NCBI GenBank assembly: GCA_964602865.1 | Contig: CAZRSX010000003.1 | Coordinates: 65,288-129,287 of the forward strand | Origin: an uncultured Candidatus Saccharibacteria bacterium | GTDB lineage: Bacteria > Patescibacteriota > Saccharimonadia > Saccharimonadales > JAGQNJ01 | Reading direction: 5' to 3' | Length of the DNA: 64,000 nt | Shown here: positions 22,309 to 43,307 of the stretch, piece after piece | How the letters are laid out: every line of letters starts with the position of its first letter | Numbering within the stretch: position 1 is the first letter of the stretch | The notes under the pieces: model-generated | The model's input: the letters and a program-made list of their open reading frames with translations, nothing else | The model's database searches: none | What the model was told of the DNA's origin: nothing | Made by a program: the position numbers and the translations under genes

Positions 22309-22454
22309 TGGGGATTGGCCAAGCGGTAAGGCAGCGAGGTCCAAGGTCCCATGATCGGGGTGAGAAATGCCGGTGGCATTTCGCAAGGAAACCTTCCTTC
22401 GAAAACTTGTTTTCAAAAGTGAAGTTTCGGGCTCGCCGAAGGTGAGTCGAATCC
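22309..22454 (+). pseudogene. tRNA-Gln-like 5' portion with ~85-nt insertion in the T-arm, lacking a 3' acceptor strand (attL-like junction)
   Basis: TGGGGATTGGCCAAGCGGTAAGGCA is 24/25 identical to the start of the intact tRNA at 22494. The anticodon-arm region GCGAGGTCCAAGGTCCCAT does not form a 5-bp stem / 7-nt loop. After TGATCGGGG the T-arm is interrupted. No ATCCCCA acceptor strand follows locally. Confidence 0.6.
22352..22454. repeat. left copy of 103-bp direct repeat (DR-L)
   Basis: Aligned by hand with 43191-43293 at an offset of 20,839 bp. 101/103 identical; the only differences are TC (22399-22400) vs CT (43238-43239). Confidence 0.9.
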
Positions 22455-22493
22455 GATTCGAACCCCGCGTATGTTAAAATCAGAATTATTTAT

Positions 22494-22567
22494 TGGGGAT
22501 TGGCCAAGTGGTAAGGCAACGGGTTCTGGTCCCGTGATCGGGGGTTCGAATCCCTCATCCCCAGCCA
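22494..22567 (+). tRNA. tRNA-Gln (anticodon CUG), CCA encoded
   Basis: Hand-folded: acceptor TGGGGAT/ATCCCCA with the U1-A72 pair typical of tRNA-Gln; D-arm GCCAAGTGGTAAGGC; anticodon arm ACGGG-TTCTGGT-CCCGT; T-arm GGGGG-TTCGAAT-CCCTC; discriminator G + CCA. Close to E. coli tRNA-Gln2 in layout. Confidence 0.9.
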
Positions 22568-22581
22568 GATGCGACAGTTTT

Positions 22582-22607
22582 AAAAGAGACCCATATGGGT
22601 CTCTTTT
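22582..22607. terminator. bidirectional rho-independent terminator
   Basis: AAAAGAGACCC-ATAT-GGGTCTCTTTT is a perfect 11-bp stem with A/T tracts. It sits between the tRNA (+) and the 3' end of the KAP NTPase gene (-). Confidence 0.8.
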
Positions 22608-22651
22608 ATTTTCCAGTAAAATTTACGACTATTATATCGCGAGAACTACGA

Positions 22652-25600
22652 TTATTCCTCTGTATATAGCGTTTTGAAATTATCCCAGTATGTCTTCTCT
22701 GCTTGATTTTGGCGACCACTTGCAAATGCTTGCATTGCTTCAAATATGTCTCGTTTTGCCTGTGTGTCGCTCCACGTTCGCATTCGAGACAGTAGATCAT
22801 CGAAGTCCTTCTTGTGAGTCTTATATCTCGGCCGTGCGATGTTTAATGAGCTCAATACTACTTGGAGCACTTGAAGATCTTGCGATTCTGCGAGTAGGCT
22901 GAAAAGTAGATAGATGTAGTCATTTCTGGGGGTGTCTTGAAGTAGTAAATAATAGTCGTTGATAATCCGAAAAGCAACACGATGAGCTGCAGATGCAGAG
23001 CGCCCTGGCTCTCGTAGCCATGTCAATAGATCGGTAGCTAGTTTGCGTTTGTCTGTTTCCTGGAGATGTTCTAGGCGGTTAAGGAATGCGTATCCAATAT
23101 CTGCTTGTGAAGGGTCGTTACTTTCAACGAGGGATGTAATCTGATCCAGTGCCGACTTTAGTTCCACGTTATCTGACTTGAGCATCTTAGCTGCAATAAA
23201 TTCAAAATACCGCTCTTTAAACGTGTATGTATTGCGCCCAGCTTTGTCGAGAAGCATCGACACAATATTTTTTCTATCGGGTAACTTATCTAGTGAGCTG
23301 ATAAAGTCGACATCATAGTAGTTGTCGGCTGGAGCACGCTTAATGATATCACTTAAGATTATCTTCTTTTCATCATCATCAGCGTTTTCGTAGATGTAAC
23401 GCAATACGTCCGCTGACGTAGCGAGACGGGGCAATATTGTTGGCAAAATAAGCTTAATGAAGCGTCCACGGGACTCTTTATTCCAATAGTCGAGAGGCCG
23501 CTGGAAGTGTGGTAAGTCAGTGAAATCTTGGAAATAGCTGTTGATACTATCGACTATCGCTTGTTTGTCGCCAGTGTCAACGAAGTTTCGAATCCAGAAT
23601 AATGCAATAATCTGGTCTGAACGCTGCTCCCATTGCGGAGTGTACGGGATGATTTTGATGATATTTTGCGAGATTTCAGAAAGGTATTGCGATCCATTTT
23701 CCAGTTCTTTGCCAAAGGTGCTGGTTAGTGGTGAAATGGCCTCAATGATCTTTGCCTTATTGTCATCGTATCGAGCAGATGCCGCCAAATCTTTCTTGAA
23801 TAGCTCGGAGATAGTCGCAACCACATCCGGTATAAGGCTGTGCTTGAGTATATAATCCTTGTAGCGATCTATGGTAGCGAGTTTTGTTGTCAGATTGTCG
23901 ATATCGAATGATCCTAGATAACTATTGAGCAACTTCTCGGTGATGAACACCTCTTGACTCTTCACATCATCGAAGATGAGGAGTGCTTCTTCATCAGTTG
24001 CATACTTCGATTCTAGTAAGGTCCTGAATTCAGTTTTTTGCTGCTTACTCAGGAGTGTCGGATTTTCTTTGAAGCTAGTAATGATGCTCAATTTGAAGGC
24101 CGCTGCCGATGCTTCGCTACCAATGATACCTAGATATCGGGTGACGATATTGCCTCGTAATGCCAGGCTTATCTTCTTATTTGCTAGAAGCTTAAATACG
24201 TGGTGCAGTGGAAGACCTTCGTGTTTTGGCCAGAGCTCTGTATCGATTGTTTTCGCCACCTCGTTTGCGTATCGTTTACTATCGACCTCAACAGCAAGAC
24301 TCGAAATTATCTCGAACTGTGTAACCACGACATTGTTTAGCATGTTTTCCTGACCAGAATACTTTGCTACCAAGTCGGTGATAAACTCAACAAGCTTATC
24401 GGCAGGCTCACTTTTAGAAGCTTCCATTGCTTCAGTGACATTACCTGCAACAAGTGCATTCTTAATGTCATTGGCATTCTTAAGACCACGAGAATCAGCA
24501 GGATCTTTGAAGTAAATAAACGGTTCGGCATCATCTACTGTAATGCGACTCGTTTTTTGCATAAAATTGGTGAAATCTTTCAGTTCTCCTGGGTTCTCAC
24601 CATTAGTTATAGCTTCAGGCTGGTGCCAATTCTCCTTGAGTGACTCATAGGCCTTCGGGAACTTCTGTCGAATGATGAGTATCTTCGCTAAATATGCAAC
24701 GTTGCTGTCAATGATATCTCTTACACCCGTACCGCGCGTACTGATAATCATGGCAATTAAGTTATTAATGAATTGGATAATCTCGCGTGGGTTGCGTGAG
24801 AATGCGGAGTTGATAACCAAAATGACATCCTCGTCATCAAGAAGCTTGCTGATTTCACCAGTTTTTCCAATCAAGTCATTCGTGTACTGCTCGAGGTCGG
24901 TGTTAATGAAGTCGGGAATCCAGATAATCAAGTTGAATATTTTTCGTAGATACTCTGCGGCACCAAAGGAATCCGACCTAACCCCATTGCTGCCATAGAA
25001 ATACTTTTCAACCTGCACTTCGATTGCGGTAGGATCGCAGGGCACGATAAAGACGAGACCGTTCTTCGCGTTACTGTACATGAACGTCTTGATGGTTGTA
25101 AGCATGGAAATAGCAACATCACCTTGTACACGATCTATGTTGTCGAATACGATTACCATCTTCTTGTCTACATGCTCAAGTATCTCAATGAATTTTGCTT
25201 CAAATTGCTCCGGTGAGTTTAGCTTATCCTGCTGGATCGTTTTAGTAATTAGTTCAGTCTGAGCTACTTGCTTACTGAATAAGCTATTTACTGCAGCCTT
25301 TACAATCTCTTCAACCGCCGGCTTGAGTATCACAACGAGTACCGATATCGATGCAGTGAAAGAAAGGACTGTTTTGAAAAGATCTGCTATAGAGAGGTGC
25401 TGCCAAACAGTGTTGAAGAGAATAATAAACACGACCGAGATAGATAGTGTACCCAGAAGGGCAAAACGTCTTGCATATCCTACAAGATTTTTGTACCACG
25501 GCCTCTTCTCAGTTTTAGCGGGGTTGTCATTTTTAGTTACAGTATTCGTTGTCGAGTTGTAAAGTGGGGTTAAAATATCTTCATCAATTTTGATCTTTTT

Positions 25601-25906
25601 GTCTTTGAGAAAATCGACAAGCTTAATAAGAAACGTCCTGCGAAGCGTGTCGTCCTTATACTTCCATGCATCAAAAATGAATACAGGCATATCAAGCTCG
25701 CTATCATTTTTCACCATTTCGATGACCGTACTTTTGCCAGCGCCCCATGCACCAAATAAGCCAATAGTATGCGGGGACGTGTCATCTTTGAGAATCTTTT
25801 TTAGTGCTGGAGCGATTGAGTTATGGTAAAAGCGTTCATAACTAACCTCAGATTTTGTCTGTGGTTCGTCTTTTAGAAAAATAAACTCAGGTGGACTCTT
25901 TTTCAT
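22652..25906 (-). CDS. KAP-family P-loop NTPase with intramolecular TM helices
   Basis: 1084 aa. Walker A GAWGAGKST and Walker B MVIVFDNIDR are separated by two hydrophobic helices (FALLGTLSISVVFIILF, VLSFTASISVLVVIL), the KAP hallmark. Long helical C-terminal region. Confidence 0.75.
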   Translation of the reverse strand: MKKSPPEFIFLKDEPQTKSEVSYERFYHNSIAPALKKILKDDTSPHTIGLFGAWGAGKSTVIEMVKNDSELDMPVFIFDAWKYKDDTLRRTFLIKLVDFLKDKKIKIDEDILTPLYNSTTNTVTKNDNPAKTEKRPWYKNLVGYARRFALLGTLSISVVFIILFNTVWQHLSIADLFKTVLSFTASISVLVVILKPAVEEIVKAAVNSLFSKQVAQTELITKTIQQDKLNSPEQFEAKFIEILEHVDKKMVIVFDNIDRVQGDVAISMLTTIKTFMYSNAKNGLVFIVPCDPTAIEVQVEKYFYGSNGVRSDSFGAAEYLRKIFNLIIWIPDFINTDLEQYTNDLIGKTGEISKLLDDEDVILVINSAFSRNPREIIQFINNLIAMIISTRGTGVRDIIDSNVAYLAKILIIRQKFPKAYESLKENWHQPEAITNGENPGELKDFTNFMQKTSRITVDDAEPFIYFKDPADSRGLKNANDIKNALVAGNVTEAMEASKSEPADKLVEFITDLVAKYSGQENMLNNVVVTQFEIISSLAVEVDSKRYANEVAKTIDTELWPKHEGLPLHHVFKLLANKKISLALRGNIVTRYLGIIGSEASAAAFKLSIITSFKENPTLLSKQQKTEFRTLLESKYATDEEALLIFDDVKSQEVFITEKLLNSYLGSFDIDNLTTKLATIDRYKDYILKHSLIPDVVATISELFKKDLAASARYDDNKAKIIEAISPLTSTFGKELENGSQYLSEISQNIIKIIPYTPQWEQRSDQIIALFWIRNFVDTGDKQAIVDSINSYFQDFTDLPHFQRPLDYWNKESRGRFIKLILPTILPRLATSADVLRYIYENADDDEKKIILSDIIKRAPADNYYDVDFISSLDKLPDRKNIVSMLLDKAGRNTYTFKERYFEFIAAKMLKSDNVELKSALDQITSLVESNDPSQADIGYAFLNRLEHLQETDKRKLATDLLTWLREPGRSASAAHRVAFRIINDYYLLLQDTPRNDYIYLLFSLLAESQDLQVLQVVLSSLNIARPRYKTHKKDFDDLLSRMRTWSDTQAKRDIFEAMQAFASGRQNQAEKTYWDNFKTLYTEE

Positions 25907-25984
25907 ATTTTACCTTGAATCAACCCCACCTGATGAAACCTTAGTCATATTATAGCAAGAAATACAGCTGTTTCAGTAGTCTCC

Positions 25985-27286
25985 TCAAGGATGTTGCATA
26001 TAAAGCCGACTCCTGTAGATCTTACGCCCTTTAACAAGTAGTGGCACGTTTAGTCCTCGTAAGAATCCGTCTTGTTCACTTAAGGTTCCTTGTTTGAGCG
26101 TATAGCTTGCAAAGTTACGGAAATGATCTCTTTCTGTGAGCTCAATCCCGTGATCTTTAATCAGCTGACTTGTTATTCGTTTATGCTGCTCTATTTTCTT
26201 AAAAACTGACTCGCTTGGCTCAACGTCATCAAGTTCGCCAGCTTCTATCATTGCCAGTATTTGCTCGACTATCATATGTGACTTTATTGATGGTTCAGGA
26301 CAATCAGGATCCTTAGTAGATTTCGTACACCGATAGTATACGTGTCTATTTTTGCCACCATCTTTACGTTTCTTGAAATGTTCCTCAACCGTTAACCTAG
26401 ATCCACATGATCCACAGTAAAACAGATGCTTGAATGGGAACTTCTTTGATCCCCATGCGGGTTTGTTGTCAGGTACGATAGATGCCATTCTACCTCGAAC
26501 GATATCGAATAGCTCTTTTGATACTATTGGTTCGTGCTTGCCTTTATACAGAGGTCCACCTACGGGATACGCAAAGTATCCATAATAGAAAGGATTGGTC
26601 AGTATTCGATAAATCTGGCTTAGCGAAAGCCGTGCCCCTGACTTAGTTGTGAAGTCGATACTATCAAGCCAGTCCTTTATTTTTCGCCCACTTTGGTTTT
26701 GTAAGCCTGATCGCTCAAACACCTCTCTAATAATTGGTGCTCTATCAATATCGAGGACTATGTCTTTCACGCCACCAAATGATCGATTTATGTAGCCGAT
26801 AGGAGCTGCGCCTGGCCGCCAGCCCATTTCACACTTGGCACGTATCCCACGTTTGACGTTAATACCTCTGTTATCATTCTCAAGCTTTGCTTGTGAACAT
26901 AGAATCATGAGCAGGAACTTCTCGTTTGGAGTATTACTGAAACTCTGCCCGAAGGTTCTTATCCTTTGCAGACGATTCATGTCCATGAGATCGACTAACG
27001 ACCCAAGATCTCCAGCATTTCTGCTTAGCCGATCAGGTGCCCATGTCAGAATCGCATCAAACTTGCCGTTTCGTAGATCATGCAGAAGTTCGTTGAACAC
27101 TGGTCTATGTCCTGATTGTTTTGCCGAGAAGCTTTCCTGTTTTGTATCTACAATATTCAAGTCTTCGCGTTCTGCCATCGCCATCATCTCTTTGATCTGT
27201 GAGTCGATTGACATCGCTTGACGTTCATCGGATTCGCTTGATTTGCGGGCATAGAGACAGTATCTGAGCTGAACGGTTTCTTCCAT
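25985..27286 (-). CDS. large serine recombinase (resolvase/invertase N-domain + recombinase domain + zinc ribbon)
   Basis: YCLYARKSSESDERQAMSIDSQ contains the catalytic Ser region. DAILTWAPDRLSRN follows, and the C-terminal part has CGSCGSRL...YYRC. Start at MEETVQL (27286) or 27295. Confidence 0.85.
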   Translation of the reverse strand: MEETVQLRYCLYARKSSESDERQAMSIDSQIKEMMAMAEREDLNIVDTKQESFSAKQSGHRPVFNELLHDLRNGKFDAILTWAPDRLSRNAGDLGSLVDLMDMNRLQRIRTFGQSFSNTPNEKFLLMILCSQAKLENDNRGINVKRGIRAKCEMGWRPGAAPIGYINRSFGGVKDIVLDIDRAPIIREVFERSGLQNQSGRKIKDWLDSIDFTTKSGARLSLSQIYRILTNPFYYGYFAYPVGGPLYKGKHEPIVSKELFDIVRGRMASIVPDNKPAWGSKKFPFKHLFYCGSCGSRLTVEEHFKKRKDGGKNRHVYYRCTKSTKDPDCPEPSIKSHMIVEQILAMIEAGELDDVEPSESVFKKIEQHKRITSQLIKDHGIELTERDHFRNFASYTLKQGTLSEQDGFLRGLNVPLLVKGRKIYRSRLYMQHP

Positions 27287-27325
27287 CAACAACAAGGTAC
27301 CGCAATAATTATAGAAGTCTAGGCT

Positions 27326-27814
27326 TTAATACTGTCGTTCTACGCAACTAACATTACTCTTTGTTGCGTATGCGGCACCTTCATTGGTGATTATAACGAG
27401 ACCTTCAAAGTATTTAGTGTCACCTGGGGCAAGAGGAGTGTTCCAGGTGACATAATCATATCCGCTGTAAGTTCCAGCTTCGTTACGGATAGTTATTGAA
27501 CAAGCAGGGTTAGACTCAGTTGAACCAGTATTTTTTACTGTAAAAGTTAGTCTTCTGCTCGTAGGGTCTGCATATGTATTACCCGCAATATTTATCTCAT
27601 AGCTTGGTGGTTGTGACTTTGGGATTTGAGCTTGTTCTGCTTCGCTATTTTCTGTTTGTACCGGCTTTGGCTCTTGCCGAGCATTAGGGTCGGTCGTAAA
27701 TCTAACTATTAAAGCACTGCCGAAGTATAAGACGATGAATGATACAAGCAGAATACCCCACGGCTTTTTGTACCATTTCTTTGCTTGTTTCTTTGGTTTG
27801 TTAGTTGGCTGCAT
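27326..27814 (-). CDS. membrane-anchored hypothetical protein (beta-sandwich-like ectodomain)
   Basis: 162 aa. Basic N-terminus plus a TM helix (WGILLVSFIVLYFGSALIV), then a Ser/Thr-rich beta-type domain. Confidence 0.5.
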   Translation of the reverse strand: MQPTNKPKKQAKKWYKKPWGILLVSFIVLYFGSALIVRFTTDPNARQEPKPVQTENSEAEQAQIPKSQPPSYEINIAGNTYADPTSRRLTFTVKNTGSTESNPACSITIRNEAGTYSGYDYVTWNTPLAPGDTKYFEGLVIITNEGAAYATKSNVSCVERQY

Positions 27815-27889
27815 ATTGACTCCTCGCCTAAGTAATGTCGGTAATCAGCGAGTAAGTCTAGCCAAATAAAAAGGACAGCCACGCTGACT

Positions 27890-27992
27890 GTCTAGATCCA
27901 CAAAAGGGTTAAACCAATTGCTTTTTTACGTAGCTGCCCATTTTATGGTTTAACTACGTCAAAAAGACGTTTGCTCTTTTGTGAATCTAGAC
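27890..27992. repeat. nested imperfect inverted repeats in an intergenic region
   Basis: GTCTAGATCCACAAAAG (27890-27906) vs the reverse complement of 27976-27992 (GTCTAGATTCACAAAAG): 16/17 match. Inner GGTTAAACC (27907-27915) / GGTTTAAC (27947-27954). Confidence 0.6.
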
Positions 27993-27999
27993 TATTTCA

Positions 28000-28479
28000 T
28001 TATAGCTCATTTTCCTTCTTGAACTGCTCTTTTAGCTCCTTTCTGACACTAGCCTTAAATTCCTCAGGATCATGACCTGCAATACGAATCGCTTCATCGA
28101 CACCAATTAGGTTAATTAGCTCATCCAGTAACCTCTGCATGCTTCGAATCTCTCCCTTGTGTCGCAAGTTTTCTTCTAAATATAGCCTTATCGCATGAGG
28201 TCGATACTTTTTGCTGTTGTGCCTTAGTACGAAGGATATCGCCTGCTGATTATTATTGCTGACATTCTCGTATAGCTTCGACTCCGCAAAGTCACTAATC
28301 TTGTCCCGGCCTCGTTCAATAGCGATCGCTACCATTTCCCTGAAGGCCGGGTCTTGATCTCGCCACCTATAAAAAGTCGCTCTTGATATCTTAAGTCTGT
28401 TACATGCCCTGGTAACAAGTGGATTTTCCTCAAGTTCCTTTAATAGCCCGACTTTTTTATCACGAGTTTTTCTTGCCAT
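28000..28479 (-). CDS. HTH DNA-binding protein (phage terminase-small-subunit-like / regulator)
   Basis: 159 aa. LVTRACNRLKISRATFYRWRDQDPAF is a helix-turn-helix. Overlaps the upstream methylase gene end by 20 nt. Confidence 0.5.
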   Translation of the reverse strand: MARKTRDKKVGLLKELEENPLVTRACNRLKISRATFYRWRDQDPAFREMVAIAIERGRDKISDFAESKLYENVSNNNQQAISFVLRHNSKKYRPHAIRLYLEENLRHKGEIRSMQRLLDELINLIGVDEAIRIAGHDPEEFKASVRKELKEQFKKENEL

Positions 28480-30014: not shown

Positions 30015-30053
30015 ATTGTGTAATATGACTGTCTATTTTGAAGAGGCCACAAA

Positions 30054-32846: not shown

Positions 32847-32848
32847 AC

Positions 32849-36208: not shown

Positions 36209-37866
36209 TGACCGTATCTCATACAACAGAAGAATATGAACAGCATCAACAAGCGAGAGCTGATTATTCTAAGCAAGTATTAAGCTCTTCTTCGAATAAG
36301 CGTTTAGTAATGGCGGGCCCAGGAACCGGTAAAAGCTTCCTCTTTCAGCAAGTAGCAAAAAATCTACGTGAGCAAGGTAAAGATAAAATTCTTGTCCTAA
36401 CATTCATCAATGAATTAGTGAAAGATCTTGCAATTGATATGCATGGATTGGCAGAAGTATCTACCCTGCATAGCTTCGCAGCCAAGAAGCTTAGAAGTCG
36501 CCAAAGTATTTATCTGGACTTATTATCTGTTGTTTCAAATGATTATAAAATCGAAGGCAATGGGGAGGTTAAGTTCCCACCCATCCTTAACAATTTAAAA
36601 ATATCAGAACATGAATGTGAACTAGAGTATCTCAGCAAAAGAAGACAATATTACGAGGCTTATGATGCAACAACAATTGTTTACGATCTGGTTAATTCAT
36701 ATCAAGCAGATAGCAATAAAATCCCGACATATGATCTGATAATGATTGATGAATATCAGGATTTCAATGAACTAGAGGCGGCATTAATTGAATTATTATC
36801 GACAAAGAGTCCTGTGTTAATAGCTGGTGATGATGATCAGTCATTGTATTCTTTTAAACATTCAAAACCTGAAAATATACGCACTATGCATGCGAATGAT
36901 GATTACGAAACTTTCGAACTCCCTTACTGTTCAAGAAGTACTAAAGTAGTCATAGATGCGTTTCACGATTTCCTTACATCGGCACAATCTAATGGGTATC
37001 TCAACGGTAGAGTTAGCAAGCAGTATTTGTACTTCCCGGATGCAAAAAAAGACAAGTATTCAAACACATACCCAGCAATTGAAATTCGAAAAGAAATATA
37101 CGAAACCAAGAATGCTTGCATGATTGACCAATCCATTAAGTCAATATTTGAGTTTGAGCCTGAATTCGATGTATTGATTATATGTCCTCTGAAAAAACAG
37201 ATCCCCAAAATTGCCGAAGCACTTCGAAAAAAAGGTTACACGAATATTTCTGGCGATGAAAAAACAGGAGTTATCAAACGATTACTTGCAGAAGGCCTTC
37301 ACTTGTTATTTGAGAATAAGGACTCAAATCTAGGATGGAGATTATGCGCAGAGGCACTGTTAGATGAAGGTGTTTTTGAGGACGCGGTTAATAAAAGTGC
37401 CGACCTTCAGACAGCATTTAAGGATTGTCTTCCTAGGGATGCAGTAGCGCTAATCAAGAAGCTTCGGGCAATTTCGGTAAAGCTTCAGGATGGTACGGAA
37501 ATTAATGCCCAAGATCAGGAACTAATATTCGAGAAGCTGGGCATTCAACCAGATAAGCTTGGAGAGGCATTTGCAAAAGACATAATCTTCGGCTCTGCTT
37601 TATCAGGAGATTTACACTGTTCAGTTAAGATCAAGATAACTACGATCCTCGGCTCAAAGGGTCTTTCGTATGACTATGTCTTTATGGTTAATTTTGACGA
37701 CAGGTATCTACTTACACAAGACGGGTCTCAAGTGGATGACGAAAGTATTAATAAATTTCTTGTTGCACTGACACGCTCTCGTAAAAAAATATCAATATAC
37801 ACAAGCAAAACTACAGAGCCTACATTTGTTGCATGGATTAATGATGAGAGGAAGTTGGTCCTATAA
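36208..37866 (+). CDS. UvrD/Rep-like SF1 helicase / AAA ATPase
   Basis: 552 aa. Walker A AGPGTGKSF, LIMIDEYQDFN, IAGDDDQSLY, GSKGLSYDYVFMV, VALTRSRKK. TAATG start/stop overlap. Confidence 0.75.
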   Translation: MTVSHTTEEYEQHQQARADYSKQVLSSSSNKRLVMAGPGTGKSFLFQQVAKNLREQGKDKILVLTFINELVKDLAIDMHGLAEVSTLHSFAAKKLRSRQSIYLDLLSVVSNDYKIEGNGEVKFPPILNNLKISEHECELEYLSKRRQYYEAYDATTIVYDLVNSYQADSNKIPTYDLIMIDEYQDFNELEAALIELLSTKSPVLIAGDDDQSLYSFKHSKPENIRTMHANDDYETFELPYCSRSTKVVIDAFHDFLTSAQSNGYLNGRVSKQYLYFPDAKKDKYSNTYPAIEIRKEIYETKNACMIDQSIKSIFEFEPEFDVLIICPLKKQIPKIAEALRKKGYTNISGDEKTGVIKRLLAEGLHLLFENKDSNLGWRLCAEALLDEGVFEDAVNKSADLQTAFKDCLPRDAVALIKKLRAISVKLQDGTEINAQDQELIFEKLGIQPDKLGEAFAKDIIFGSALSGDLHCSVKIKITTILGSKGLSYDYVFMVNFDDRYLLTQDGSQVDDESINKFLVALTRSRKKISIYTSKTTEPTFVAWINDERKLVL

Positions 37867-39345
37867 ATGACTCTAAGTAAGTCAGACTACACAACCTATT
37901 TAAAACACCCTGCTTGGCTTTGGATCAAGAAACACGCTAAGACTATCCTCCCACCTATAGACCCTGCAACTCAAGCGATCTTTGATACCGGCCACGAATT
38001 TGAGCAATACGCAGAAGCTCTTTTCCCGGGTGGCGTAACTCTTGGATTTAATGACTACGACGAATACATATCATTGCCCGACAGGACTACCCAGGCCCTT
38101 GATGAAGGTATCCTCACGATCTTCCAGGGTCGCTTCGAACACAAGCAGTTAACCTTTATTTGCGATGTTATTCAGGTGGTTGGTAATAAGGAAGTAGACC
38201 TAATTGAGATCAAATCCAGTACCAGTGCCAAGCCAGAGCATGTGGTTGATCTCGCATTCCAGATGGTAGTTCTGGAGAAATGCGGCTACAGTGTGCGAAA
38301 TATATCCGTCATTCATGTAAACAATCAGTATGTTCGCAGTGGTGCAGTCGATGCAAAGTCCATTACTGCAAGAACTGACGTTACTGAAAGCGTTAAGGCT
38401 GCTCGTGAGTCTACTCTACAAAAAATAGATGAAGCACTCGAAGTACTGGCATTGACCGAATGCCCCGATGTGTCGCCGCTTCACGCTGATTCAAAGTCTT
38501 TTGGAGAATGGCTGGATATTTATAAGCATCTAAAGAATCCGAAGCCGGGCAGTATATTTGATTTATGCCAAATGGATGCCAAAACATTACGGAATCTACA
38601 AGCCAGTAACATCACTCATATAAAGGACATCCCCGCAGATTTTGTACTGAAACCAAAACAAAGATTGCAGGTTGAAGCCTTACGTCAAGGTCATCCAACA
38701 ATTCAAGCTGACAAGATTAAAGAATTTCTAGGCTCATTCGAATATCCCTTATATTTTTTCGATTACGAAACTCTGGGCAGCCTTGTGCCTTATTTTGACG
38801 GCTTAAAGCCTTATCAACAGTTGCCATTCCAATACTCGCTCCATACCCTAGATAGCCCCGACTCAGAACTAAGACACGAAGAATTTCTGCATCGTGATAG
38901 TGCCAACCCTGCCCAACCGCTTACAGAAGCATTGATTTCTCACATTGGAAATAAAGGAACGATCATCACCTGGAACATGGGCTTTGAGAAAAACTGTAAT
39001 AATCTAATCGGTAGTCTTCTGCCAGAACATGCTGAATTCTACGAAAATCTGAATAGCCGCATTGTTGATCTGATGACTCCGTTCTCAAAAAATTGGTTCG
39101 TAGATGCTGATTTCTGTGGTAGTGCATCGATTAAAAAAGTGTTGCCAGTGCTAGTGCCGGAACTTTCTCATAAAATGCTAGATATTTCTGATGGTAGTAC
39201 TGCCCAGCGACTTTGGATGGAAGCCGTTCTTGACGGAAAACGTCCAGACGAAAAAGAAAAGATTCTTACCGACCTACTCGATTACTGCAAACTTGACACC
39301 CTTGCAATGGTTGAAATCTGGAGAGTGTTAAGTAAATTGAGTTAG
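37867..39345 (+). CDS. DUF2779-like protein: N-terminal PD-(D/E)XK nuclease + C-terminal RNase H-fold exonuclease-like domain
   Basis: 492 aa. CDVIQVV...VDLIEIKSS is a D...ExK motif. YFFDYETL, TWNMGFEKN and LDYCKLDTLAM are DEDD-like motifs. Starts immediately after the upstream stop. Confidence 0.65.
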   Translation: MTLSKSDYTTYLKHPAWLWIKKHAKTILPPIDPATQAIFDTGHEFEQYAEALFPGGVTLGFNDYDEYISLPDRTTQALDEGILTIFQGRFEHKQLTFICDVIQVVGNKEVDLIEIKSSTSAKPEHVVDLAFQMVVLEKCGYSVRNISVIHVNNQYVRSGAVDAKSITARTDVTESVKAARESTLQKIDEALEVLALTECPDVSPLHADSKSFGEWLDIYKHLKNPKPGSIFDLCQMDAKTLRNLQASNITHIKDIPADFVLKPKQRLQVEALRQGHPTIQADKIKEFLGSFEYPLYFFDYETLGSLVPYFDGLKPYQQLPFQYSLHTLDSPDSELRHEEFLHRDSANPAQPLTEALISHIGNKGTIITWNMGFEKNCNNLIGSLLPEHAEFYENLNSRIVDLMTPFSKNWFVDADFCGSASIKKVLPVLVPELSHKMLDISDGSTAQRLWMEAVLDGKRPDEKEKILTDLLDYCKLDTLAMVEIWRVLSKLS

Positions 39346-39347
39346 CT

Positions 39348-40187
39348 ATGGCAAGATTTTACTGCACCGTCCCCAATCTTGATATAACGACTCAAGTAAC
39401 AGATGTAAAGTTAGCCGATAATGTCAGCAAAGTAGTGCTGTCTAATTCGAGATTATCTGCAGAATTGCCGAATGGACTGTCTGACAAGATTTATGACAAG
39501 ATATCTAAACAGGTTAGAATTATATATTCGTTTTGCTTTGAAGAAGTTTATCCAGAAAGTTATGACATAGACGAGCCAAGCACTTCAATTGGCGTTGGTG
39601 GACATGATGAAAGGAAAGAGCACCTCCTTGTATACTCAGGCAGCCCGAGAGACGAGTTTAAGGAAATATCATCTGCTCTATTCGAAGACCTTCTGAAGCT
39701 AGAGATTGGACAAAAAGATAAGCGACAACTATTTAATCTTATGTTTATATGGGCTAGAGCGAAGGAATTAGAAGAATTAAAATTGATGGTCGAGGCATAT
39801 ACCCAGTATTGGCGAATATTGGATCTAATTAAGGCTAAGGGTAACAAGGCGGCGGCGGTTAAACTACTGCAGAGCCTATCGCTAGAGCAAACCACATCTA
39901 ATATTGCTGCTGCAAAAATTGAAATGGTTATGCGACCACAAGCTAAAAAATATTCTAAGGATAATATAGAGATGATTTCTTATCTTGATAGCTTAAGGCA
40001 TCCGCATGCTCACAAACCCTCCAGAAGCGAGGACTACTATCTTGAAGAAATATCGACTCATTTGGATGCAGAAATGAATAATATCTTCATCGCAGACATA
40101 TCAAGACTTTATGTTCTATGGACTGTTGGGCTTAAAAAATATTATCTGAAACCAAGAGCAAACATTTACGAACTAGCTAAGCGTTAA
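39348..40187 (+). CDS. hypothetical protein (possible HEPN-like R-x4-H motif)
   Basis: 279 aa, predicted helical. Contains LRHPHAH (R-x4-H), which is weak evidence. Starts 2 nt after the upstream stop. Confidence 0.45.
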   Translation: MARFYCTVPNLDITTQVTDVKLADNVSKVVLSNSRLSAELPNGLSDKIYDKISKQVRIIYSFCFEEVYPESYDIDEPSTSIGVGGHDERKEHLLVYSGSPRDEFKEISSALFEDLLKLEIGQKDKRQLFNLMFIWARAKELEELKLMVEAYTQYWRILDLIKAKGNKAAAVKLLQSLSLEQTTSNIAAAKIEMVMRPQAKKYSKDNIEMISYLDSLRHPHAHKPSRSEDYYLEEISTHLDAEMNNIFIADISRLYVLWTVGLKKYYLKPRANIYELAKR

Positions 40188-40230
40188 AACGCAAGTGTTT
40201 ATCACCTTATCTACTGATACAATATAGTAA

Positions 40231-41151
40231 ATGTCTCTATACAAAATCAGCGAATCAAAGCTAAAACCAGTATCGGCTAAAGATTTCAAACTTGAGCGCG
40301 ATTCACAACGACTTATCGAATCTAATATCGAGGAAGTATTCGGACTGAAGTTTGTTGATACAGAATTCCAGCTCAATGGCCTGCGTGTTGATACATTAGC
40401 ATTCGACGAGGAAACAAACAGCTTTGTAGTTATTGAATACAAGCGTGATCGTAGCTCTAGCGTCATAGACCAAGGGTATTCGTATCTAGCTCTTGTTCTA
40501 AACAACAAGGCTGACTTTGTCTTGCGTTATAACGAAACACAAAAAGCTAGTCTCACTAAGTCCGATATAGATTGGAGCGCAACACGAGTTATATTTGTTG
40601 CTGCTCGTTTTACTACTCATCAACTTGGTTCAATTAACTTTCAAGACTTACCGATTGAACTATGGAAAGCCCAATTATTTGAAGGCGGTATGATCAGTAT
40701 CGAGCAACAACTGGCGGACAAACAAGCAGAATCTATCAAAACCGTCACCAAGAAATCTACAACTACCGACAGTGTTGTTGAAGAAATTCGTACCTATAGT
40801 GTGAACGATCTTATAAAAGAAGATTACCCGTCCAAGTCTCTATATGAAGAGTTGTCTACAAGAATTTTAGAACTTGACTCAAATTTCACAGAATCACCCA
40901 AGAAGGGCTACATTGGCTTCAAACTCGGTACAAAATTAGTTGTTGCTGTCGTACCTCAACGTAATCGTTTAGTACTAGAGCTGAATCGAACGAGACCCGA
41001 GGACGTAGATGATCCAAAAGGACTCGTTGAGCTTATACCTAAAAGTCTAGAGCATAAGAATCGATACATTAGTCGTATCTTTATTGAAGACATTGGTGTC
41101 ATCAACTACGCAATGACACTTGTTGAGCAAGTGTATAAAAGACATCTATAA
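40231..41151 (+). CDS. NucS/DUF91-like PD-(D/E)XK nuclease with C-terminal DUF5655-like region
   Basis: 306 aa. VDTLAFDEETNSFVVIEYKRD is a D...E-x-K core. C-terminal KKGYIGFKLGTKLVVAVVPQRNRLVLEL resembles DUF5655 from memory; unverified. Confidence 0.55.
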   Translation: MSLYKISESKLKPVSAKDFKLERDSQRLIESNIEEVFGLKFVDTEFQLNGLRVDTLAFDEETNSFVVIEYKRDRSSSVIDQGYSYLALVLNNKADFVLRYNETQKASLTKSDIDWSATRVIFVAARFTTHQLGSINFQDLPIELWKAQLFEGGMISIEQQLADKQAESIKTVTKKSTTTDSVVEEIRTYSVNDLIKEDYPSKSLYEELSTRILELDSNFTESPKKGYIGFKLGTKLVVAVVPQRNRLVLELNRTRPEDVDDPKGLVELIPKSLEHKNRYISRIFIEDIGVINYAMTLVEQVYKRHL

Positions 41152-41170
41152 ATTGGCGTAAAATGTAAGT

Positions 41171-42364
41171 GTGTACACACATCTCAAAGAACGCCAATTT
41201 TACGAAGATATCTACGATAAACACACTGTAGAGTCTGGTCGTCGTGGCATGGTTCATTATGAGAAGTTCTATAAAGAACTCGAAGCGAAGCTCGACAAAG
41301 ACGATACTATCGACAGGCCGGGTAATGCAATCCTACTCAATGCTTTTTATATGCAAATTATCGGCCTTGAGCTACTTGAGCGCTATGAAAACCGAGAACA
41401 ATACATTACCGACTGGATGGCCAAGGACGAAGTTAAAGACGAGCAAATTACCTCAGCAAGGCTGAGCGAAGAGCCGTACTGCCACAACTGTGGCAAGCAA
41501 GGGCTTAGGATTATAGACAAATCACTGATGCACCGAAGCAAGACCTATAAAATCGGCGATCCTGAAGAAGTCCTATTTATGCTTCGCTGTCCGCATTGCG
41601 AGAAGAACAGTGCCTTTTGGGAAGACGGCACTGCTTGGAAGGTAAAGCCAACCGTCTGTCCAAAATGTAAATCAGAAGTGACGCATAAGACTACTAAGAC
41701 CAAGAAAGCCATCACAATCACTTATACCTGCACCTCTTGCAAACATAGCTTCAAAGACAAGATGGATCTTACTGAAAAGAAAGAAGAACCTGACCCCAAT
41801 TTTGATAAAGACCGTGCTCATTTCTGTTTGTGGGACAAGGAGTTCCGCGAGCATGTATTTGCCACCAAGAAGGGCTTTGAAGACATGGCTCGGCTTGGTA
41901 AAGAGATGAAAGAAAAGCAAGACAATAAACATCTCTACGATGCTATAAAAGAGATTAAGAAGCCAAAGATCGCTGAGCTATCTACTATTCTGGCTCCCGC
42001 ACTGGAAAAGGCCGGATATATTGAATTTCACTTGGATAAACCCGAAATGGGACGAGATGTTTATATCGGCTTCAGCTGTCTAGATAGCAAAAGTGACCGA
42101 AACGACTACGATAGCGAAAAGACCTTAAGGAAGACTGTTCAGGCCGCGCTGACAGATACTAATTGGCGACTTATGAGTGACGGCATACATTACAGGCTCG
42201 GATACCTGAACGGACGACTACGAGCCTACGAGCGCGAAGAAGATCTTAAGAATTTAGTCGAGAAGGATATTAAGGCCGGTAAGCTCGTGCCAAAGGCTCC
42301 TAAACCTGCCGATAAAGACCCCAATACTCTCTTAGCACCTGACGGTACGAAGATAATACTATGA
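41171..42364 (+). CDS. hypothetical protein with two CxxC...CxxC zinc ribbons
   Basis: 397 aa (GTG start; next in-frame ATG at 41249). CHNCGK...CPHCEK and CPKCKS...CTSCKH. Lys/Glu-rich. Confidence 0.45.
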   Translation: MYTHLKERQFYEDIYDKHTVESGRRGMVHYEKFYKELEAKLDKDDTIDRPGNAILLNAFYMQIIGLELLERYENREQYITDWMAKDEVKDEQITSARLSEEPYCHNCGKQGLRIIDKSLMHRSKTYKIGDPEEVLFMLRCPHCEKNSAFWEDGTAWKVKPTVCPKCKSEVTHKTTKTKKAITITYTCTSCKHSFKDKMDLTEKKEEPDPNFDKDRAHFCLWDKEFREHVFATKKGFEDMARLGKEMKEKQDNKHLYDAIKEIKKPKIAELSTILAPALEKAGYIEFHLDKPEMGRDVYIGFSCLDSKSDRNDYDSEKTLRKTVQAALTDTNWRLMSDGIHYRLGYLNGRLRAYEREEDLKNLVEKDIKAGKLVPKAPKPADKDPNTLLAPDGTKIIL

Positions 42365-42386
42365 CATTCTGAGAATGTAAGTTAAG

Positions 42387-42821
42387 GTGACAAGCACCAT
42401 GACAGATTTATCAATCTATATGACATCCATCGGCAACGATGACTACCAGATGTTTATCAAGAACAATAACTCTGAAACAGACTTTATTAGGATTGTTATT
42501 GGTTATACAGAAATAGTTAAAGGCGAACGGGTTGGCAAGGTAGTCAACAGCTGGATTATCTCTCCGCTGCAAAGCTATGGAGAGCATGTTTTTGTTCAAT
42601 CAGCCAATAAGCACATGATGCAGGGCAAACGATTATGGGTTGCCTTTGAGGCATTGAAGCGAAGTAAACCGAAGAATACATTGGTTGGTAGTTTTATGGC
42701 ATTATCGCCAACAGGCAGTAAATGGCGCAATACAGTTGGCTCGTCTACATATTTCGATATCAAGGCCATAGATTCCCTAAGAAGTCTAGAAAAACCACTC
42801 GAAATAGCTCAGATTGCCTAG
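42387..42821 (+). CDS. hypothetical protein
   Basis: 144-aa ORF (GTG 42387 or ATG 42399), last gene of the co-directional block. No recognisable motif. Confidence 0.4.
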   Translation: MTSTMTDLSIYMTSIGNDDYQMFIKNNNSETDFIRIVIGYTEIVKGERVGKVVNSWIISPLQSYGEHVFVQSANKHMMQGKRLWVAFEALKRSKPKNTLVGSFMALSPTGSKWRNTVGSSTYFDIKAIDSLRSLEKPLEIAQIA

Positions 42822-42906
42822 CTTTTGAGACACCCTAGAGTAGTGTCTCATTTGTCGCATTTTAAGGAGTTAGGCTATAATTCATGCAAATAGCGAGGGT
42901 TAACTT

Positions 42907-43086
42907 ATGGCAAAAGATACTAAGAATAAATCAGCAGCACCTGGCTTGATAATTGTAGGCTCGTTAATTACCTCTGTTGTTACAGTAAACCCGGTACCAT
43001 TTATTGCCGGAATATCATTCGTAGGGCTATTCGGAAATAGATTTGGCCAGAAGTATGACAAAAAGACAGGAAGAAGAGTTAAGTAA
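42907..43086 (+). CDS. candidate 59-aa small membrane protein (below ORF-track cutoff)
   Basis: Own translation: MAKDTKNKSAAPGLIIVGSLITSVVTVNPVPFIAGISFVGLFGNRFGQKYDKKTGRRVK*. GAGGG lies about 9 nt upstream of the ATG. Hydrophobic core with a basic tail. Confidence 0.3.
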   Translation: MAKDTKNKSAAPGLIIVGSLITSVVTVNPVPFIAGISFVGLFGNRFGQKYDKKTGRRVK

Positions 43087-43114
43087 GCATTAAGGGACTA
43101 GACCTGTATGCTCA

Positions 43115-43156
43115 GCCAAAGCAAGGCTCACTCGCAAGAGTGGGTTTTGCTTTGGC
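43115..43156 (+). terminator. long GNRA-capped hairpin at the right end of the island (terminator or structured RNA)
   Basis: GCCAAAGCAA (43115-43124) pairs with TTGCTTTGGC (43147-43156). The inner stem GGCTCACTC/GAGTGGGTT is capped by a GCAA tetraloop (43134-43137), giving ~19 near-continuous bp. Only a weak T-tract follows. Confidence 0.4.
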
Positions 43157-43190
43157 TCTTGTGATGCGAGTTCGAATTCCCGATCAAAAG

Positions 43191-43293
43191 TGATCGGGGT
43201 GAGAAATGCCGGTGGCATTTCGCAAGGAAACCTTCCTCTGAAAACTTGTTTTCAAAAGTGAAGTTTCGGGCTCGCCGAAGGTGAGTCGAATCC
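43191..43293. repeat. right copy of 103-bp direct repeat (DR-R)
   Basis: 101/103 identical to 22352-22454 (see DR-L). Confidence 0.9.
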
Positions 43294-43307
43294 CTCATCC
43301 CCAGCCA
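43191..43307 (+). pseudogene. tRNA-Gln-like 3' portion (variable loop, interrupted T-arm, acceptor 3' strand and CCA); attR-like junction
   Basis: TGATCGGGG + insertion + GTCGAATCCCTCATCCCCAGCCA. The last 22 nt (43286-43307) are identical to the 3' end of the intact tRNA-Gln (22546-22567). No matching 5' acceptor strand is found nearby. Confidence 0.65.

What the first reader, a model, noticed from the sequence alone, without database searches (positions are those of the whole stretch)
22309..43307. ~20.8-kb island bracketed by a 103-bp direct repeat derived from a tRNA-Gln-like gene, yet carrying only a serine recombinase
22352-22454 and 43191-43293 are 101/103 identical; the only difference is TC vs CT at 22399-22400 / 43238-43239. 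The left copy is preceded by 43 nt that match the 5' part of tRNA-Gln. The right copy is followed by CTCATCCCCAGCCA, the complementary acceptor strand plus CCA. Left flank + one repeat + right flank therefore reads as one continuous tRNA-like gene, an attB-like empty site. A second, nested repeat also exists: the last 22 nt of the intact tRNA-Gln (22546-22567) equal 43286-43307. Two alternative excision products are thus possible (20,839 or 20,740 bp), one taking the intact tRNA with it and one leaving it behind. Hand-counted 60-nt lines are 37-43% GC inside vs 52-57% outside. Long tRNA-derived direct repeats are classic for tyrosine-integrase islands. Here the only recombinase (25985-27286) is a large serine recombinase, and it is not adjacent to either end. 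That combination is unusual.
Basis: partly seen in the sequence, partly recalled or inferred. Interest (0 to 1): 0.75.

Follow-up and report, generated by a model that had tools for sequence, protein, structure and literature searches.

The report
Serine-integrase defence island beside tRNA-Gln
A 20.5-kb anti-phage defence island was inserted by a serine integrase at the very end of a glutamine tRNA gene in a Saccharibacteria genome, and the long repeats that seemed to bracket it are two copies of a widespread, undescribed folded element that sits in tRNA-gene fragments next to tRNA genes.

Summary
The repeats are real: 103 nt at 101/103 identity, plus a nested 22-nt repeat. They are not the island's attachment sites.

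Homologues of the large serine recombinase (LSR) in 80 Patescibacteria loci nearly always lie next to a tRNA, mostly tRNA-Gln. These loci define conserved arms:
- P' (GATGCGACAG) directly follows the tRNA's CCA.
- P (..AGACCnnnnnTGCT) sits at the far end of the island.
- A 6-bp core, CAGCCA, lies at both junctions.
- Contiguous P-core-P' junctions occur in L006 and L007.

In the window the island is therefore 22568-43118 (20,551 bp). Removing it rebuilds tRNA-Gln, a 72-nt trailer/terminator and a "module". That arrangement is seen uninterrupted in dozens of loci.

Each 103-nt repeat is an 86-nt four-helix insert lodged in the T-loop of a partial tRNA-Gln copy.
- More than 140 instances surround many tRNA types.
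- Covariation is strong and strand-specific.
- Rfam has no match.

Verdict: an LSR defence island of a known kind with an unusual tRNA-3'-end target, sitting inside an unexplained and probably new class of tRNA-fragment modules.

The parts
22309..22360 (+). Upstream partial tRNA-Gln copy: acceptor 5' strand, D arm, degenerate anticodon arm, variable region and T-stem 5' strand, ending in GATCGGGG
   Evidence: 88% identical to the tRNA 5' part over 33 nt. Not called as a tRNA by ARAGORN or Rfam, even at E<=10. The same fragment type lies upstream of intact tRNAs in 42 other module instances.
22361..22446 (+). Structured insert, copy 1 (TGAGAA..P1..GCAAGG..P2..P3..GGTGAG), lodged in the T-loop of the upstream fragment
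   Evidence: CM R1 scores 114.8 bits, E 1e-25. RNAalifold and covariation support. No Rfam family matches.
22447..22466 (+). T-loop remainder TCGAATCC followed by an inverted 12-nt copy of the T-arm 5' side (GATTCGAACCCC). Together they form a hairpin.
   Evidence: Read from the sequence. blastn finds an inverted match to tRNA positions 48-59. The same feature occurs in L073, L055, L091 and L107.
22494..22567 (+). Intact tRNA-Gln(CTG). Its last 6 nt (22562-22567, CAGCCA) are the attL copy of the LSR core.
   Evidence: ARAGORN; Rfam tRNA at 61.7 bits; core defined.
22568..22612 (+). Island left end: LSR P' arm GATGCGACAG..., then a palindrome (AGAGACCCAT/ATGGGTCTCT) with a T-run that replaces the tRNA's own terminator
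   Evidence: GATGCGACAG follows the CCA of tRNA-Gln in L002, L003, L004, L008, L009, L012, L015, L018, L019 and L021, and follows the core in the contiguous junctions of L006/L007. The palindrome was read by eye; the terminator scan did not list it.
22568..43118 (.). The integrated island as delimited here, 20,551 bp
   Evidence: Bounded by the two CAGCCA cores, with the P' arm inside the left junction and the P arm inside the right one. Removing it restores the canonical tRNA-72 nt-module arrangement. GC is 0.38-0.44.
22652..25906 (-). KAP-family P-loop NTPase (QatA-like), cargo lying between attL and the LSR
   Evidence: Pfam KAP_NTPase 5.7e-27; PADLOC QatA 1.3e-20.
25985..27295 (-). Large serine recombinase, the island's integrase
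   Evidence: Pfam Resolvase, Recombinase and Zn_ribbon_recom; PHROG 95 integrase 6e-65; homologues up to 86% identical in 80 Patescibacteria loci.
27326..29854 (-). Unknown 162-aa ORF; HTH / small-terminase-like protein (28000-28479); ParB-N6/N4 DNA methyltransferase (28460-29854)
30054..42821 (+). Defence cargo: MmeI-like type IIG restriction-modification enzyme (30054-32846), DEAD helicase, T5orf172 protein, GajB-like UvrD helicase, DUF2779 protein, PDC-S18 candidate (40231-41151), and three unknown ORFs
   Evidence: Pfam; PADLOC REase_MTase_IIG at 973 bits, GajB 1e-26, PDC-S18 2e-97.
43093..43118 (+). Island right end: LSR P arm (GGGACTAGACCTGTATGCT) plus the attR copy of the core CAGCCA (43113-43118)
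   Evidence: The motif TAC(C/T)AGACCnnnnnTGCT-CAGCCA is conserved at the far ends of LSR islands in L001, L005, L012, L017, L020, L028, L042, L047, L055, L067, L072, L078 and L079. Junctions aligned.
43119..43149 (+). The tRNA-Gln's original trailer and intrinsic terminator, displaced 20.5 kb by the island
   Evidence: Terminator-like site at 43130-43145 plus T-run. Colinear with the sequence directly after the tRNA in L176.
43150..43191 (+). Inverted, degenerate copy of the tRNA 3' part (TGGCT..GAGTTCGAATTCCCGATC) and a short loop. It can pair with the tRNA 3' half or with the downstream fragment.
   Evidence: Read from the sequence. The same layout occurs in every downstream-type module inspected.
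43192..43307 (+). Downstream partial tRNA-Gln copy: T-stem 5' strand (43192-43199), structured insert copy 2 (43200-43285), T-loop remainder and 3' tail to CCA (43286-43307)
   Evidence: CM R1 scores 114.6 bits. The tail is 22/22 identical to the tRNA 3' end. At least 50 analogous modules lie 62-82 nt after an intact tRNA.

Best explanation
Two separate things are superimposed.

(1) The island. Window 22568-43118 is a 20,551-bp integrative defence island. Its large serine recombinase (25985-27295, minus strand) inserted it at the extreme 3' end of tRNA-Gln(CTG). Strand exchange is inferred to occur inside a 6-bp core, CAGCCA, which is the last six bases of the tRNA.
- attL is the tRNA 3' end, the core and the element arm P' (GATGCGACAG...).
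- attR is the element arm P (...CTAGACCTGTATGCT), the core and the tRNA's original trailer and terminator.
- The tRNA stays intact, and the island brings a new palindrome plus T-run directly after it.
- Cargo is a type IIG restriction-modification enzyme, a QatA-like NTPase, GajB-like and DEAD helicases, PDC-S18 and a ParB-methyltransferase.

(2) The 103-nt direct repeat predates the island and is not made by it. Each copy is an 86-nt four-helix structured insert lodged in the T-loop of a partial tRNA-Gln copy.
- One is a 5' fragment 40 nt upstream of the tRNA.
- The other is a 3' fragment that normally lies about 70 nt downstream of the tRNA, after its terminator.
- The island landed between the tRNA and that terminator and pushed the downstream module 20.5 kb away.

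Such modules flank many tRNA genes in Patescibacteria. Their own origin is not settled. My working inference is a small non-autonomous insertion element that survives only in dispensable tRNA-gene fragments.

Shown: the domain architecture, the conserved arms and core, the uninterrupted arrangement elsewhere, and the covariation. Inferred: catalysis by this LSR, the exact crossover dinucleotide, and any function or mobility mechanism of the modules.
For: The LSR family is tRNA-linked.
- 58 of 80 homologous loci carry a convergent tRNA downstream of the LSR; 49 are tRNA-Gln. The median distance is 916 nt, and 20 lie within 500 nt.

Arms and core.
- P' (GATGCGACAG) lies directly after CCA in at least 10 loci and in the window.
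- P (AGACCnnnnnTGCT-CAGCCA) lies at the far end of islands in 13 loci and in the window.
- Contiguous P-CAGCCA-P' occurs in L006/L007, and tandem junctions occur in L018, L020 and L055.
- P and the reverse complement of P' share CTGT..GC..TC, the inverted symmetry expected of a serine-integrase attP.

Empty-site evidence.
- Window 22546-22567 joined to 43119-43200 gives tRNA + 72 nt + module. This is colinear with uninterrupted tRNA-Gln loci whose spacers are 64-76 nt, and closest to L176.
- The orthologue of the right-flank hydrolase (78% amino-acid identity, L201/L202) has tRNA-Gln 127 nt upstream and no island.

Modules exist without islands.
- Counts around intact tRNAs are 36 downstream-only, 28 upstream-only and 12 both.

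The insert is structured.
- In a 7-sequence alignment, 14 of 36 predicted pairs show compensatory changes.
- In 116 distinct sequences, 95.4% of cells are paired against 30-47% when partners are slid. 35 of 36 pairs show double changes, 0 of 500 shuffles reach the observed values, and G-U pairs are conserved.

Cargo annotation.
Against: - No read-level or experimental evidence of excision or integration for this island.
- The L006/L007 P-core-P' junctions could be tandem-element junctions rather than free circles.
- The nearest empty orthologous site (L201) is only 78% identical at the protein level and carries a different isoacceptor (TTG).
- The two window inserts are 98% identical, whereas pairs around one tRNA elsewhere are often 75-92% identical or of different subtypes. 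A recent common origin or gene conversion in this genome remains unexplained.
- For the modules, no mobilising enzyme, transcript or free form was found.
- The covariation alignment was fitted to the model, so it leans towards the structure.
Confidence: 0.85

Rival explanations
1. A 20,839-bp element bounded by the 103-nt repeat integrated into a tRNA-like gene that already contained the insert. It disrupted that gene and brought its own intact tRNA-Gln, in the manner of tRNA-dependent lysogeny.
For: - The 103-nt repeat is 98% identical.
- The outer flanks do read as the 5' and 3' parts of a tRNA-Gln.
- Phages that disrupt a host tRNA and carry a replacement are known, with tyrosine integrases (PMC10865867).
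Against: - No complete 5'+insert+3' gene occurs among about 140 instances.
- Upstream and downstream modules occur independently (36, 28 and 12 for downstream-only, upstream-only and both) and often belong to different subtypes around one tRNA.
- Both modules flank tRNAs where no island is present.
- The LSR's conserved arms lie elsewhere.
Confidence: 0.04
2. Classical tRNA-3'-end duplication. The 22-nt repeat (22546-22567 = 43286-43307) is the att core, and the element is 20,740 bp including the right-hand insert as its attP arm.
For: - The 22-nt repeat is perfect.
- In L025 and L042 a tRNA tail copy lies beyond the LSR.
Against: - The conserved P arm and core lie 170 nt to the left of that repeat, in the window and in L025/L028.
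- The stretch between them (terminator, inverted copy, insert) directly follows the tRNA in uninterrupted loci.
- The contiguous P-core-P' junctions in L006/L007 contain no insert.
Confidence: 0.05
3. Composite reading, not exclusive of the best explanation. The segment 'inverted T-arm piece - promoter - tRNA-Gln - terminator - inverted tail copy' is itself one or two older integrase-less mini-elements that duplicated parts of the resident tRNA. The insert belongs to their ends or to a separate small insertion element. The LSR island later landed inside that structure.
For: - Presence/absence polymorphism of modules between loci about 98% identical, L098 and L166.
- Tandem upstream modules in L133, and leader duplication in L107.
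- Inserts after G-runs in an anticodon loop, a D-loop and an antisense tRNA copy, and nested in another insert.
- Decayed copies in L201 and L012.
Against: - No linked transposase or integrase, and no free form.
- 1-2 nt of the T-loop are lost at the insertion point, which is atypical of precise transposition.
- Copies within a locus are no more alike than copies from different loci.
- Strong structural conservation could equally mean a host function.
Confidence: 0.4
4. Assembly artefact: the repeat caused a chimeric join in a metagenome assembly.
For: The source is evidently a metagenome-assembled Saccharibacteria genome, and 103-nt repeats can mislead assemblers.
Against: - The same architecture recurs in independent assemblies (L073, L025, L028, L068/L093/L120).
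- The two copies differ at 2 positions.
- The att arms sit exactly where the LSR family predicts.
Confidence: 0.02

Closest known systems
Serine-integrase (LSR) prophages and integrative elements (phiC31, Bxb1, A118, Tn4451/TndX type)
   Same: - Resolvase + Recombinase + zinc-ribbon architecture.
- Very short identity at attL/attR.
- attP arms with imperfect inverted symmetry.
- Integrase gene near one end.
The review PMC5704250 notes very short repeats for serine-recombinase elements.
   Different: - Known serine-recombinase elements mostly insert inside, and disrupt, protein-coding genes (PMC5704250).
- This family targets the last bases of a tRNA gene, mainly tRNA-Gln, and leaves it intact.
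- It forms tandem arrays there.
Tyrosine-integrase genomic islands at tRNA 3' ends
   Same: - Target is a tRNA gene.
- The integrase is proximal to the tRNA.
- Elements accumulate in tandem, and leftover tRNA-tail copies lie downstream.
   Different: - No tyrosine recombinase is present.
- The att identity is 6 bp, not tens of bp.
- The long repeat is unrelated to integration.
tRNA-dependent lysogeny (Guerrero-Bustamante and Hatfull 2024, PMC10865867)
   Same: An intact tRNA of the same isotype lies next to a broken copy of that tRNA.
   Different: - There, a tyrosine integrase disrupts the host tRNA and the replacement tRNA lies inside the prophage.
- Here the intact tRNA lies outside the LSR island, and the broken copies exist without any island.
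tRNA fragments left by mobile elements in archaea (Caldiarchaeum, PMC3293823); group I introns in Patescibacteria tRNAs (PMC13011429)
   Same: - tRNA genes interrupted or fragmented by inserted sequence.
- CPR genomes are already known to be rich in insertions within RNA genes.
   Different: - The insert is only 86-100 nt and has no Rfam intron or ribozyme match.
- It is never found in a complete gene.
- It is found in partial copies beside an intact gene.
Integron cassette arrays / attC sites
   Same: In L118, single-gene cassettes alternate with about 190-nt palindromic, structured modules, and each cassette abuts a module's 3' tail.
   Different: - No IntI is present.
- Cassette ends carry LSR-type P arms.
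- The crossover is at a tRNA-like ...CCA end.
- The module contains tRNA-derived sequence.

Membership tests
Large serine recombinase integrative element | Integrase with an N-terminal resolvase catalytic domain, a recombinase domain and a zinc beta-ribbon domain | tested here: met
   Pfam PF00239 9.5e-22, PF07508 6.9e-14, PF13408 3.6e-11; PHROG 95 integrase.
Large serine recombinase integrative element | attL and attR share only a short core; the arms P and P' are element-specific and inverted-symmetric | tested here: met
   The 6-bp core CAGCCA lies at 22562-67 and 43113-18. The P and P' arms are conserved across at least 20 homologous loci and share CTGT..GC..TC symmetry.
Large serine recombinase integrative element | attP (P-core-P') exists as a contiguous sequence outside the integrated state | tested here: inconclusive
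   Contiguous junctions occur in L006 and L007, which hold no tRNA. They could be free circles or tandem junctions. No true hit in IMG/VR.
Large serine recombinase integrative element | An unoccupied attB in relatives | tested here: met
   The reconstructed attB matches uninterrupted tRNA-Gln + spacer + module loci. The orthologous hydrolase locus in L201/L202 has tRNA-Gln and no island. The relatives are distant (78% amino-acid identity).
Large serine recombinase integrative element | Recombination activity of this enzyme on these sites | not testable with these tools
   Needs an in vitro or in vivo assay.
Tyrosine-integrase tRNA island with long tRNA-derived att repeats | A tyrosine recombinase is encoded in the island | tested here: not met
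   No phage-integrase family hit in any island or flanking ORF.
Tyrosine-integrase tRNA island with long tRNA-derived att repeats | The long direct repeat is the product of integration, so only one copy is present at an empty site | tested here: not met
   Both repeat-type modules flank tRNAs that have no island. The single-copy complete gene was never observed.
tRNA-dependent lysogeny | The replacement tRNA lies inside the integrated element, and the host tRNA is disrupted by that same integration | tested here: not met
   tRNA-Gln lies to the left of attL, outside the LSR island.
Any Rfam 15 RNA family (ribozymes, introns, tmRNA, Y RNA and so on) for the 86-nt insert | A covariance-model match | tested here: not met
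   Only tRNA passes the gathering score. Nothing plausible appears at E<=10 over 22250-22650. Sixteen further module loci give only tRNA.
Conserved structured RNA (generic) | Base pairs maintained by compensatory changes, specific to one strand | tested here: met
   Antisense CM hits score about 20 bits against about 115 bits for sense hits. Transcription was not tested, and a folded ssDNA form is not excluded.
IS200/IS605-type PATE or other non-autonomous insertion element | A linked or trans-acting transposase, precise ends and a defined target | not tested
   Only indirect hints exist: inserts follow G-runs in several contexts and nest within each other. No transposase was sought genome-wide.

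The most novel reading that the evidence does not exclude
The 86-nt insert defines a large, undescribed family of structured modules in Patescibacteria.
- It is a four-helix element, folded as RNA or as single-stranded DNA.
- It lodges after G-runs, chiefly in T-loops, within partial tRNA-gene copies.
- Each partial copy has an inverted tRNA piece beside it and lies next to the intact cognate tRNA gene.

It would be either a new kind of non-autonomous mobile element that duplicates part of its tRNA target, or a new tRNA-linked non-coding RNA. Its 3' tails also serve as extra landing sites for serine-integrase cassettes, as in L118.
Probability: 0.55. Interest if true: 0.8.

Novelty: new variant of a known kind. 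Interest (0 to 1): 0.6.

Why it matters
1. It corrects the boundaries and mechanism of a defence island. It also documents a serine-integrase family in the candidate phyla radiation (CPR) that targets the last bases of tRNA-Gln without breaking it. Serine integrases with compact, well-defined att sites are sought as genome-engineering tools, and the comparative data here give attP and attB almost to the base.

2. It shows that long tRNA-derived repeats around an island need not be att sites. This is a trap for automated island finders.

3. It exposes an abundant structured element around tRNA genes of Patescibacteria. The element is absent from Rfam and I could not find it in the literature. 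Whether it is a mobile element or a functional RNA bears on how these reduced genomes tolerate and organise insertions in RNA genes.

Tried and rejected
- Rfam on the window, on the repeat region at E<=10, and on 16 further module loci gave only tRNA.
- Exact-protein look-ups of the left-flank gene found nothing on record, and its only homologue is itself. The right-flank hydrolase was used instead.
- A scan of IMG/VR for the insert pattern gave 0 hits.
- A scan of IMG/VR for attP gave one chance hit in a high-GC coding region.
- LSR homologues in IMG/VR gave 3 loci. The closest (L207) is integrated beside tRNA-Gln, and the other two (L208, L209) show no tRNA and no att motif, so no free form was seen.
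- Hammerhead, K-turn / box C/D, group II intron ends, tmRNA and bridge or omega guide RNAs were considered from memory for the insert. None fits the conserved nucleotides, and none is supported by Rfam.
- A palindromic CG crossover in the T-loop TTCGAA was considered for the LSR. It was dropped once the real arms were found.
- The correlation between tail decay and loss of pairing (rho 0.67 for downstream modules, none for upstream ones) is confounded by variant T-loops and was not used.
- The test for within-genome homogenisation of inserts was negative.
- Literature searches found no description of the modules or of this LSR family.

Full report
**1. Observation**

The repeats are exactly as described.
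- 22352-22454 and 43191-43293 are 101/103 identical.
- 22546-22567 equals 43286-43307.
- 22309-22341 is 88% identical to the 5' part of the only tRNA, tRNA-Gln(CTG) at 22494-22567.

GC is 0.38-0.44 between 23 and 43 kb and 0.50-0.56 to the left. It stays at 0.41-0.46 for about 4.7 kb beyond the right repeat, so composition marks only the left edge.

The interval encodes one recombinase, a large serine recombinase (LSR) at 25985-27295(-), with Resolvase, Recombinase and Zn_ribbon_recom domains. The rest is defence cargo:
- an MmeI-like type IIG restriction-modification enzyme (PADLOC 973 bits);
- a QatA-like KAP NTPase;
- a GajB-like UvrD helicase and a DEAD helicase;
- a T5orf172 protein and a DUF2779 protein;
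- the PDC-S18 candidate;
- a ParB-methyltransferase and a small-terminase-like HTH protein.

**2. Host and relatives of the recombinase**

A scan of species-representative genomes with the LSR returned 80 loci, nearly all Saccharibacteria or other Patescibacteria, at up to 86% identity.
- In 58 of them a tRNA lies downstream of the LSR on the opposite strand.
- 49 of these are tRNA-Gln; the others are Asn, Ser, Met and Trp.
- The median distance is 916 nt, and 20 lie within 500 nt.

The family is therefore tRNA-linked. In the window the LSR is separated from the tRNA only by the KAP NTPase gene.

**3. The real attachment sites**

Three features recur.
- In the window and in at least 10 of the closest loci, the bases directly after the tRNA's CCA are GATGCGACAG (arm P').
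- At the far side of the LSR islands in 13 loci, and in the window at 43093-43118, the sequence is TAC(C/T)AGACCnnnnnTGCT followed by CAGCCA (arm P plus core), then unrelated host sequence.
- In L006 and L007, which hold no tRNA, P, the core and P' are contiguous...AGACCTGTATGCT-CAGCCA-GATGCGACAGCAG.... L018, L020 and L055 show the same junction between tandem elements.

P and the reverse complement of P' share CTGT..GC..TC, the imperfect inverted symmetry of a serine-integrase attP.

The window island therefore runs from 22568 to 43118 (20,551 bp). CAGCCA lies at both junctions, at 22562-67 and 43113-18. That strand exchange occurs within this core is an inference from the family, not something shown here.

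**4. The empty site**

Joining 22546-22567 to 43119-43200 gives tRNA-Gln, then 72 nt, then the right-hand repeat. The 72 nt comprise the trailer, an intrinsic terminator and an inverted degenerate copy of the tRNA 3' part.

Uninterrupted tRNA-Gln loci have the same layout with spacers of 64-76 nt. L176 is nearly colinear (AGCTAAGGCCCACTCGAAAGAGTGGGTTTTT...).

The orthologue of the right-flank hydrolase (78% identity, L201/L202) has tRNA-Gln 127 nt upstream and no island. It retains only decayed remains of the upstream module and of a tail copy.

**5. What the 103-nt repeat is**

Each copy consists of three parts:
- GATCGGGG, the variable region and T-stem 5' strand of tRNA-Gln;
- an 86-nt insert;
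- TCGAATCC, the rest of the T-loop.

Homologous inserts occur in other LSR loci: L073, L025, L028, L055 and L068.

Seven sequences gave an RNAalifold structure of three hairpins closed by a T-stem-like helix, with 14 of 36 pairs showing compensatory changes.

A covariance model and a metagenome pattern scan were then run. Together they gave 123 + 24 further hits, many at E<1e-20.

On 116 distinct sequences:
- 95.4% of cells pair, against 30-47% when partners are slid;
- 35 of 36 pairs show double changes;
- no shuffle reaches the observed values;
- several G-U pairs are conserved.

Antisense hits score about 20 bits against about 115 bits for sense hits. The structure is therefore strand-specific, on the tRNA's strand. 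That alignment was fitted to the model, which favours the structure somewhat.

No Rfam 15 family matches. The literature searches found nothing on it.

**6. Context of the modules**

They accompany many tRNA types: Gln, Glu, Val, Leu, Lys, Arg, Pro, Ser, Gly, His, Ala and Thr. There are two forms.
- The upstream form is a tRNA 5' fragment, the insert, the T-loop remainder and a 12-13-nt inverted copy of the T-arm. A promoter-like AT-rich stretch and the intact cognate tRNA follow 30-55 nt later (42 instances).
- The downstream form follows an intact tRNA by 62-82 nt (at least 50 instances). It consists of a terminator, an inverted degenerate copy of the tRNA 3' part, a short loop, the T-stem 5' strand, the insert, and the T-loop remainder through CCA.

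The two forms are independent: 36 downstream-only, 28 upstream-only and 12 both. Around one tRNA they are often of different subtypes, as in L091, L164 and L123.

None of about 140 instances is a complete 5'+insert+3' gene.

The modules are dynamic.
- L098 and L166, about 98% identical in their flanks, differ in which modules they carry.
- L133 has tandem upstream modules.
- In L107 the duplicated unit includes the tRNA leader.
- L201 and L012 hold decayed copies.

The insert also occurs after G-runs in other settings:
- the anticodon loop of a tRNA-Pro(GGG) fragment;
- a D-loop;
- an antisense tRNA-Phe copy;
- nested inside another insert.

Other insert families that lack the first hairpin exist in L080 and L032.

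Module tails can themselves receive LSR-type cassettes. In L118, single-gene cassettes alternate with modules and abut ...GGCCCTCCA tails. L126 and L005 are similar.

**7. Interpretation**

The island is an ordinary kind of element, an LSR-mobilised defence island, with an unusual target. By contrast, the review notes that site-specific serine-recombinase elements disrupt dispensable genes, whereas tRNA 3' ends are the usual target of tyrosine-integrase elements.

The long repeat is a pre-existing feature of the tRNA locus, split apart by the island.

RecA-type recombination between the two 103-nt copies remains physically possible. It would delete the intact tRNA-Gln together with the island, and it is not the element's own pathway.

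Why the two window copies are 98% alike, when such pairs elsewhere are more divergent, is unexplained. Recent gene conversion or a common recent origin are the obvious options.

**8. The modules' mechanism is open**

My leading inference, at about 0.4, has two parts:
- a small non-autonomous insertion element that is seen only in dispensable tRNA fragments, because insertion into the intact gene would be lethal;
- fragments that are themselves local duplications or leftovers of integrations.

Alternatives are att arms of integrase-less mini-elements, or a functional tRNA-linked RNA. No enzyme, transcript or free form was found, and copies within one locus are no more alike than copies from different loci.

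**9. Verdict**

- Observation: confirmed.
- Interpretation: partly supported. The island, the LSR and the tRNA link hold. The att sites, the empty site and the excision sizes are wrong.
- Novelty: a new variant of a known kind for the island.
- There is a substantial chance that the repeat belongs to a new class of structured element.

Noticed in passing
L118:11150-12750: Integron-like array. About 190-nt tRNA-Lys-type modules alternate with single-gene cassettes (a GNAT acetyltransferase and a 117-aa ORF). Each cassette starts right after a module tail ...GGCCCTCCA and ends with ..TAGAC..-GGCCCTCCA plus a terminator. No integrase lies within the 14-kb locus.
   Followed up: partly
window 43326-43342: ATTCTCACCCCCAACCA looks like a further, decayed copy of the tRNA-Gln 3' tail, 19 nt after the downstream module. 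L201 has a similar extra tail copy 23 nt after its tRNA. These suggest repeated past events at this tRNA end.
   Followed up: no
window 43308-48000: The right flank stays at 0.41-0.46 GC although its first gene (the double alpha/beta-hydrolase at 43390-45510) has orthologues next to tRNA-Gln in relatives. The stretch is either host DNA of low GC or an older island.
   Followed up: partly
L124:6129-6330; L140:8900-9060; L106:1640-1960: Inserts nested inside another insert's third hairpin (L124, L140/L180), and an insert within an antisense copy of tRNA-Phe (L106; also L198). In each case the insert follows a run of G.
   Followed up: partly
L147:6000-6270; L156:1650-1960; L086:2240-2436: Some inserts are not next to any tRNA fragment. 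They lie near a shared motif GGGGCGGACCGGGCG(G/A)CAGGACCCG, possibly part of a larger unknown RNA. Rfam finds nothing there.
   Followed up: partly
L080 (reverse strand) 7040-7330: Three copies, 105 nt apart, of the first 18 nt of tRNA-Val followed by ACTTTGCATCAGCAAACTTCG. The last copy is the real tRNA-Val. This is another family of tRNA-fragment repeats.
   Followed up: no
window 27895-27916 / 28608-28629 and 30266-30284 / 31235-31253: A 22-nt direct repeat (91%) flanks the HTH gene region, and a 19-nt inverted repeat (95%) lies inside the type IIG enzyme gene. No link to the LSR sites was found.
   Followed up: no
window 22176-22445(+) and 43128-43505(-): Mechanical ORFs of 89 and 125 aa overlap the two modules. 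An annotation pipeline could call them as spurious genes.
   Followed up: no
L020 (reverse strand) 3076-18750; L055 (reverse strand) 100-3100: Tandem LSR elements at one tRNA-Gln. Hybrid P-core-P' junctions lie between elements of the same or different LSR subfamilies, including a 195-bp remnant in L055.
   Followed up: partly
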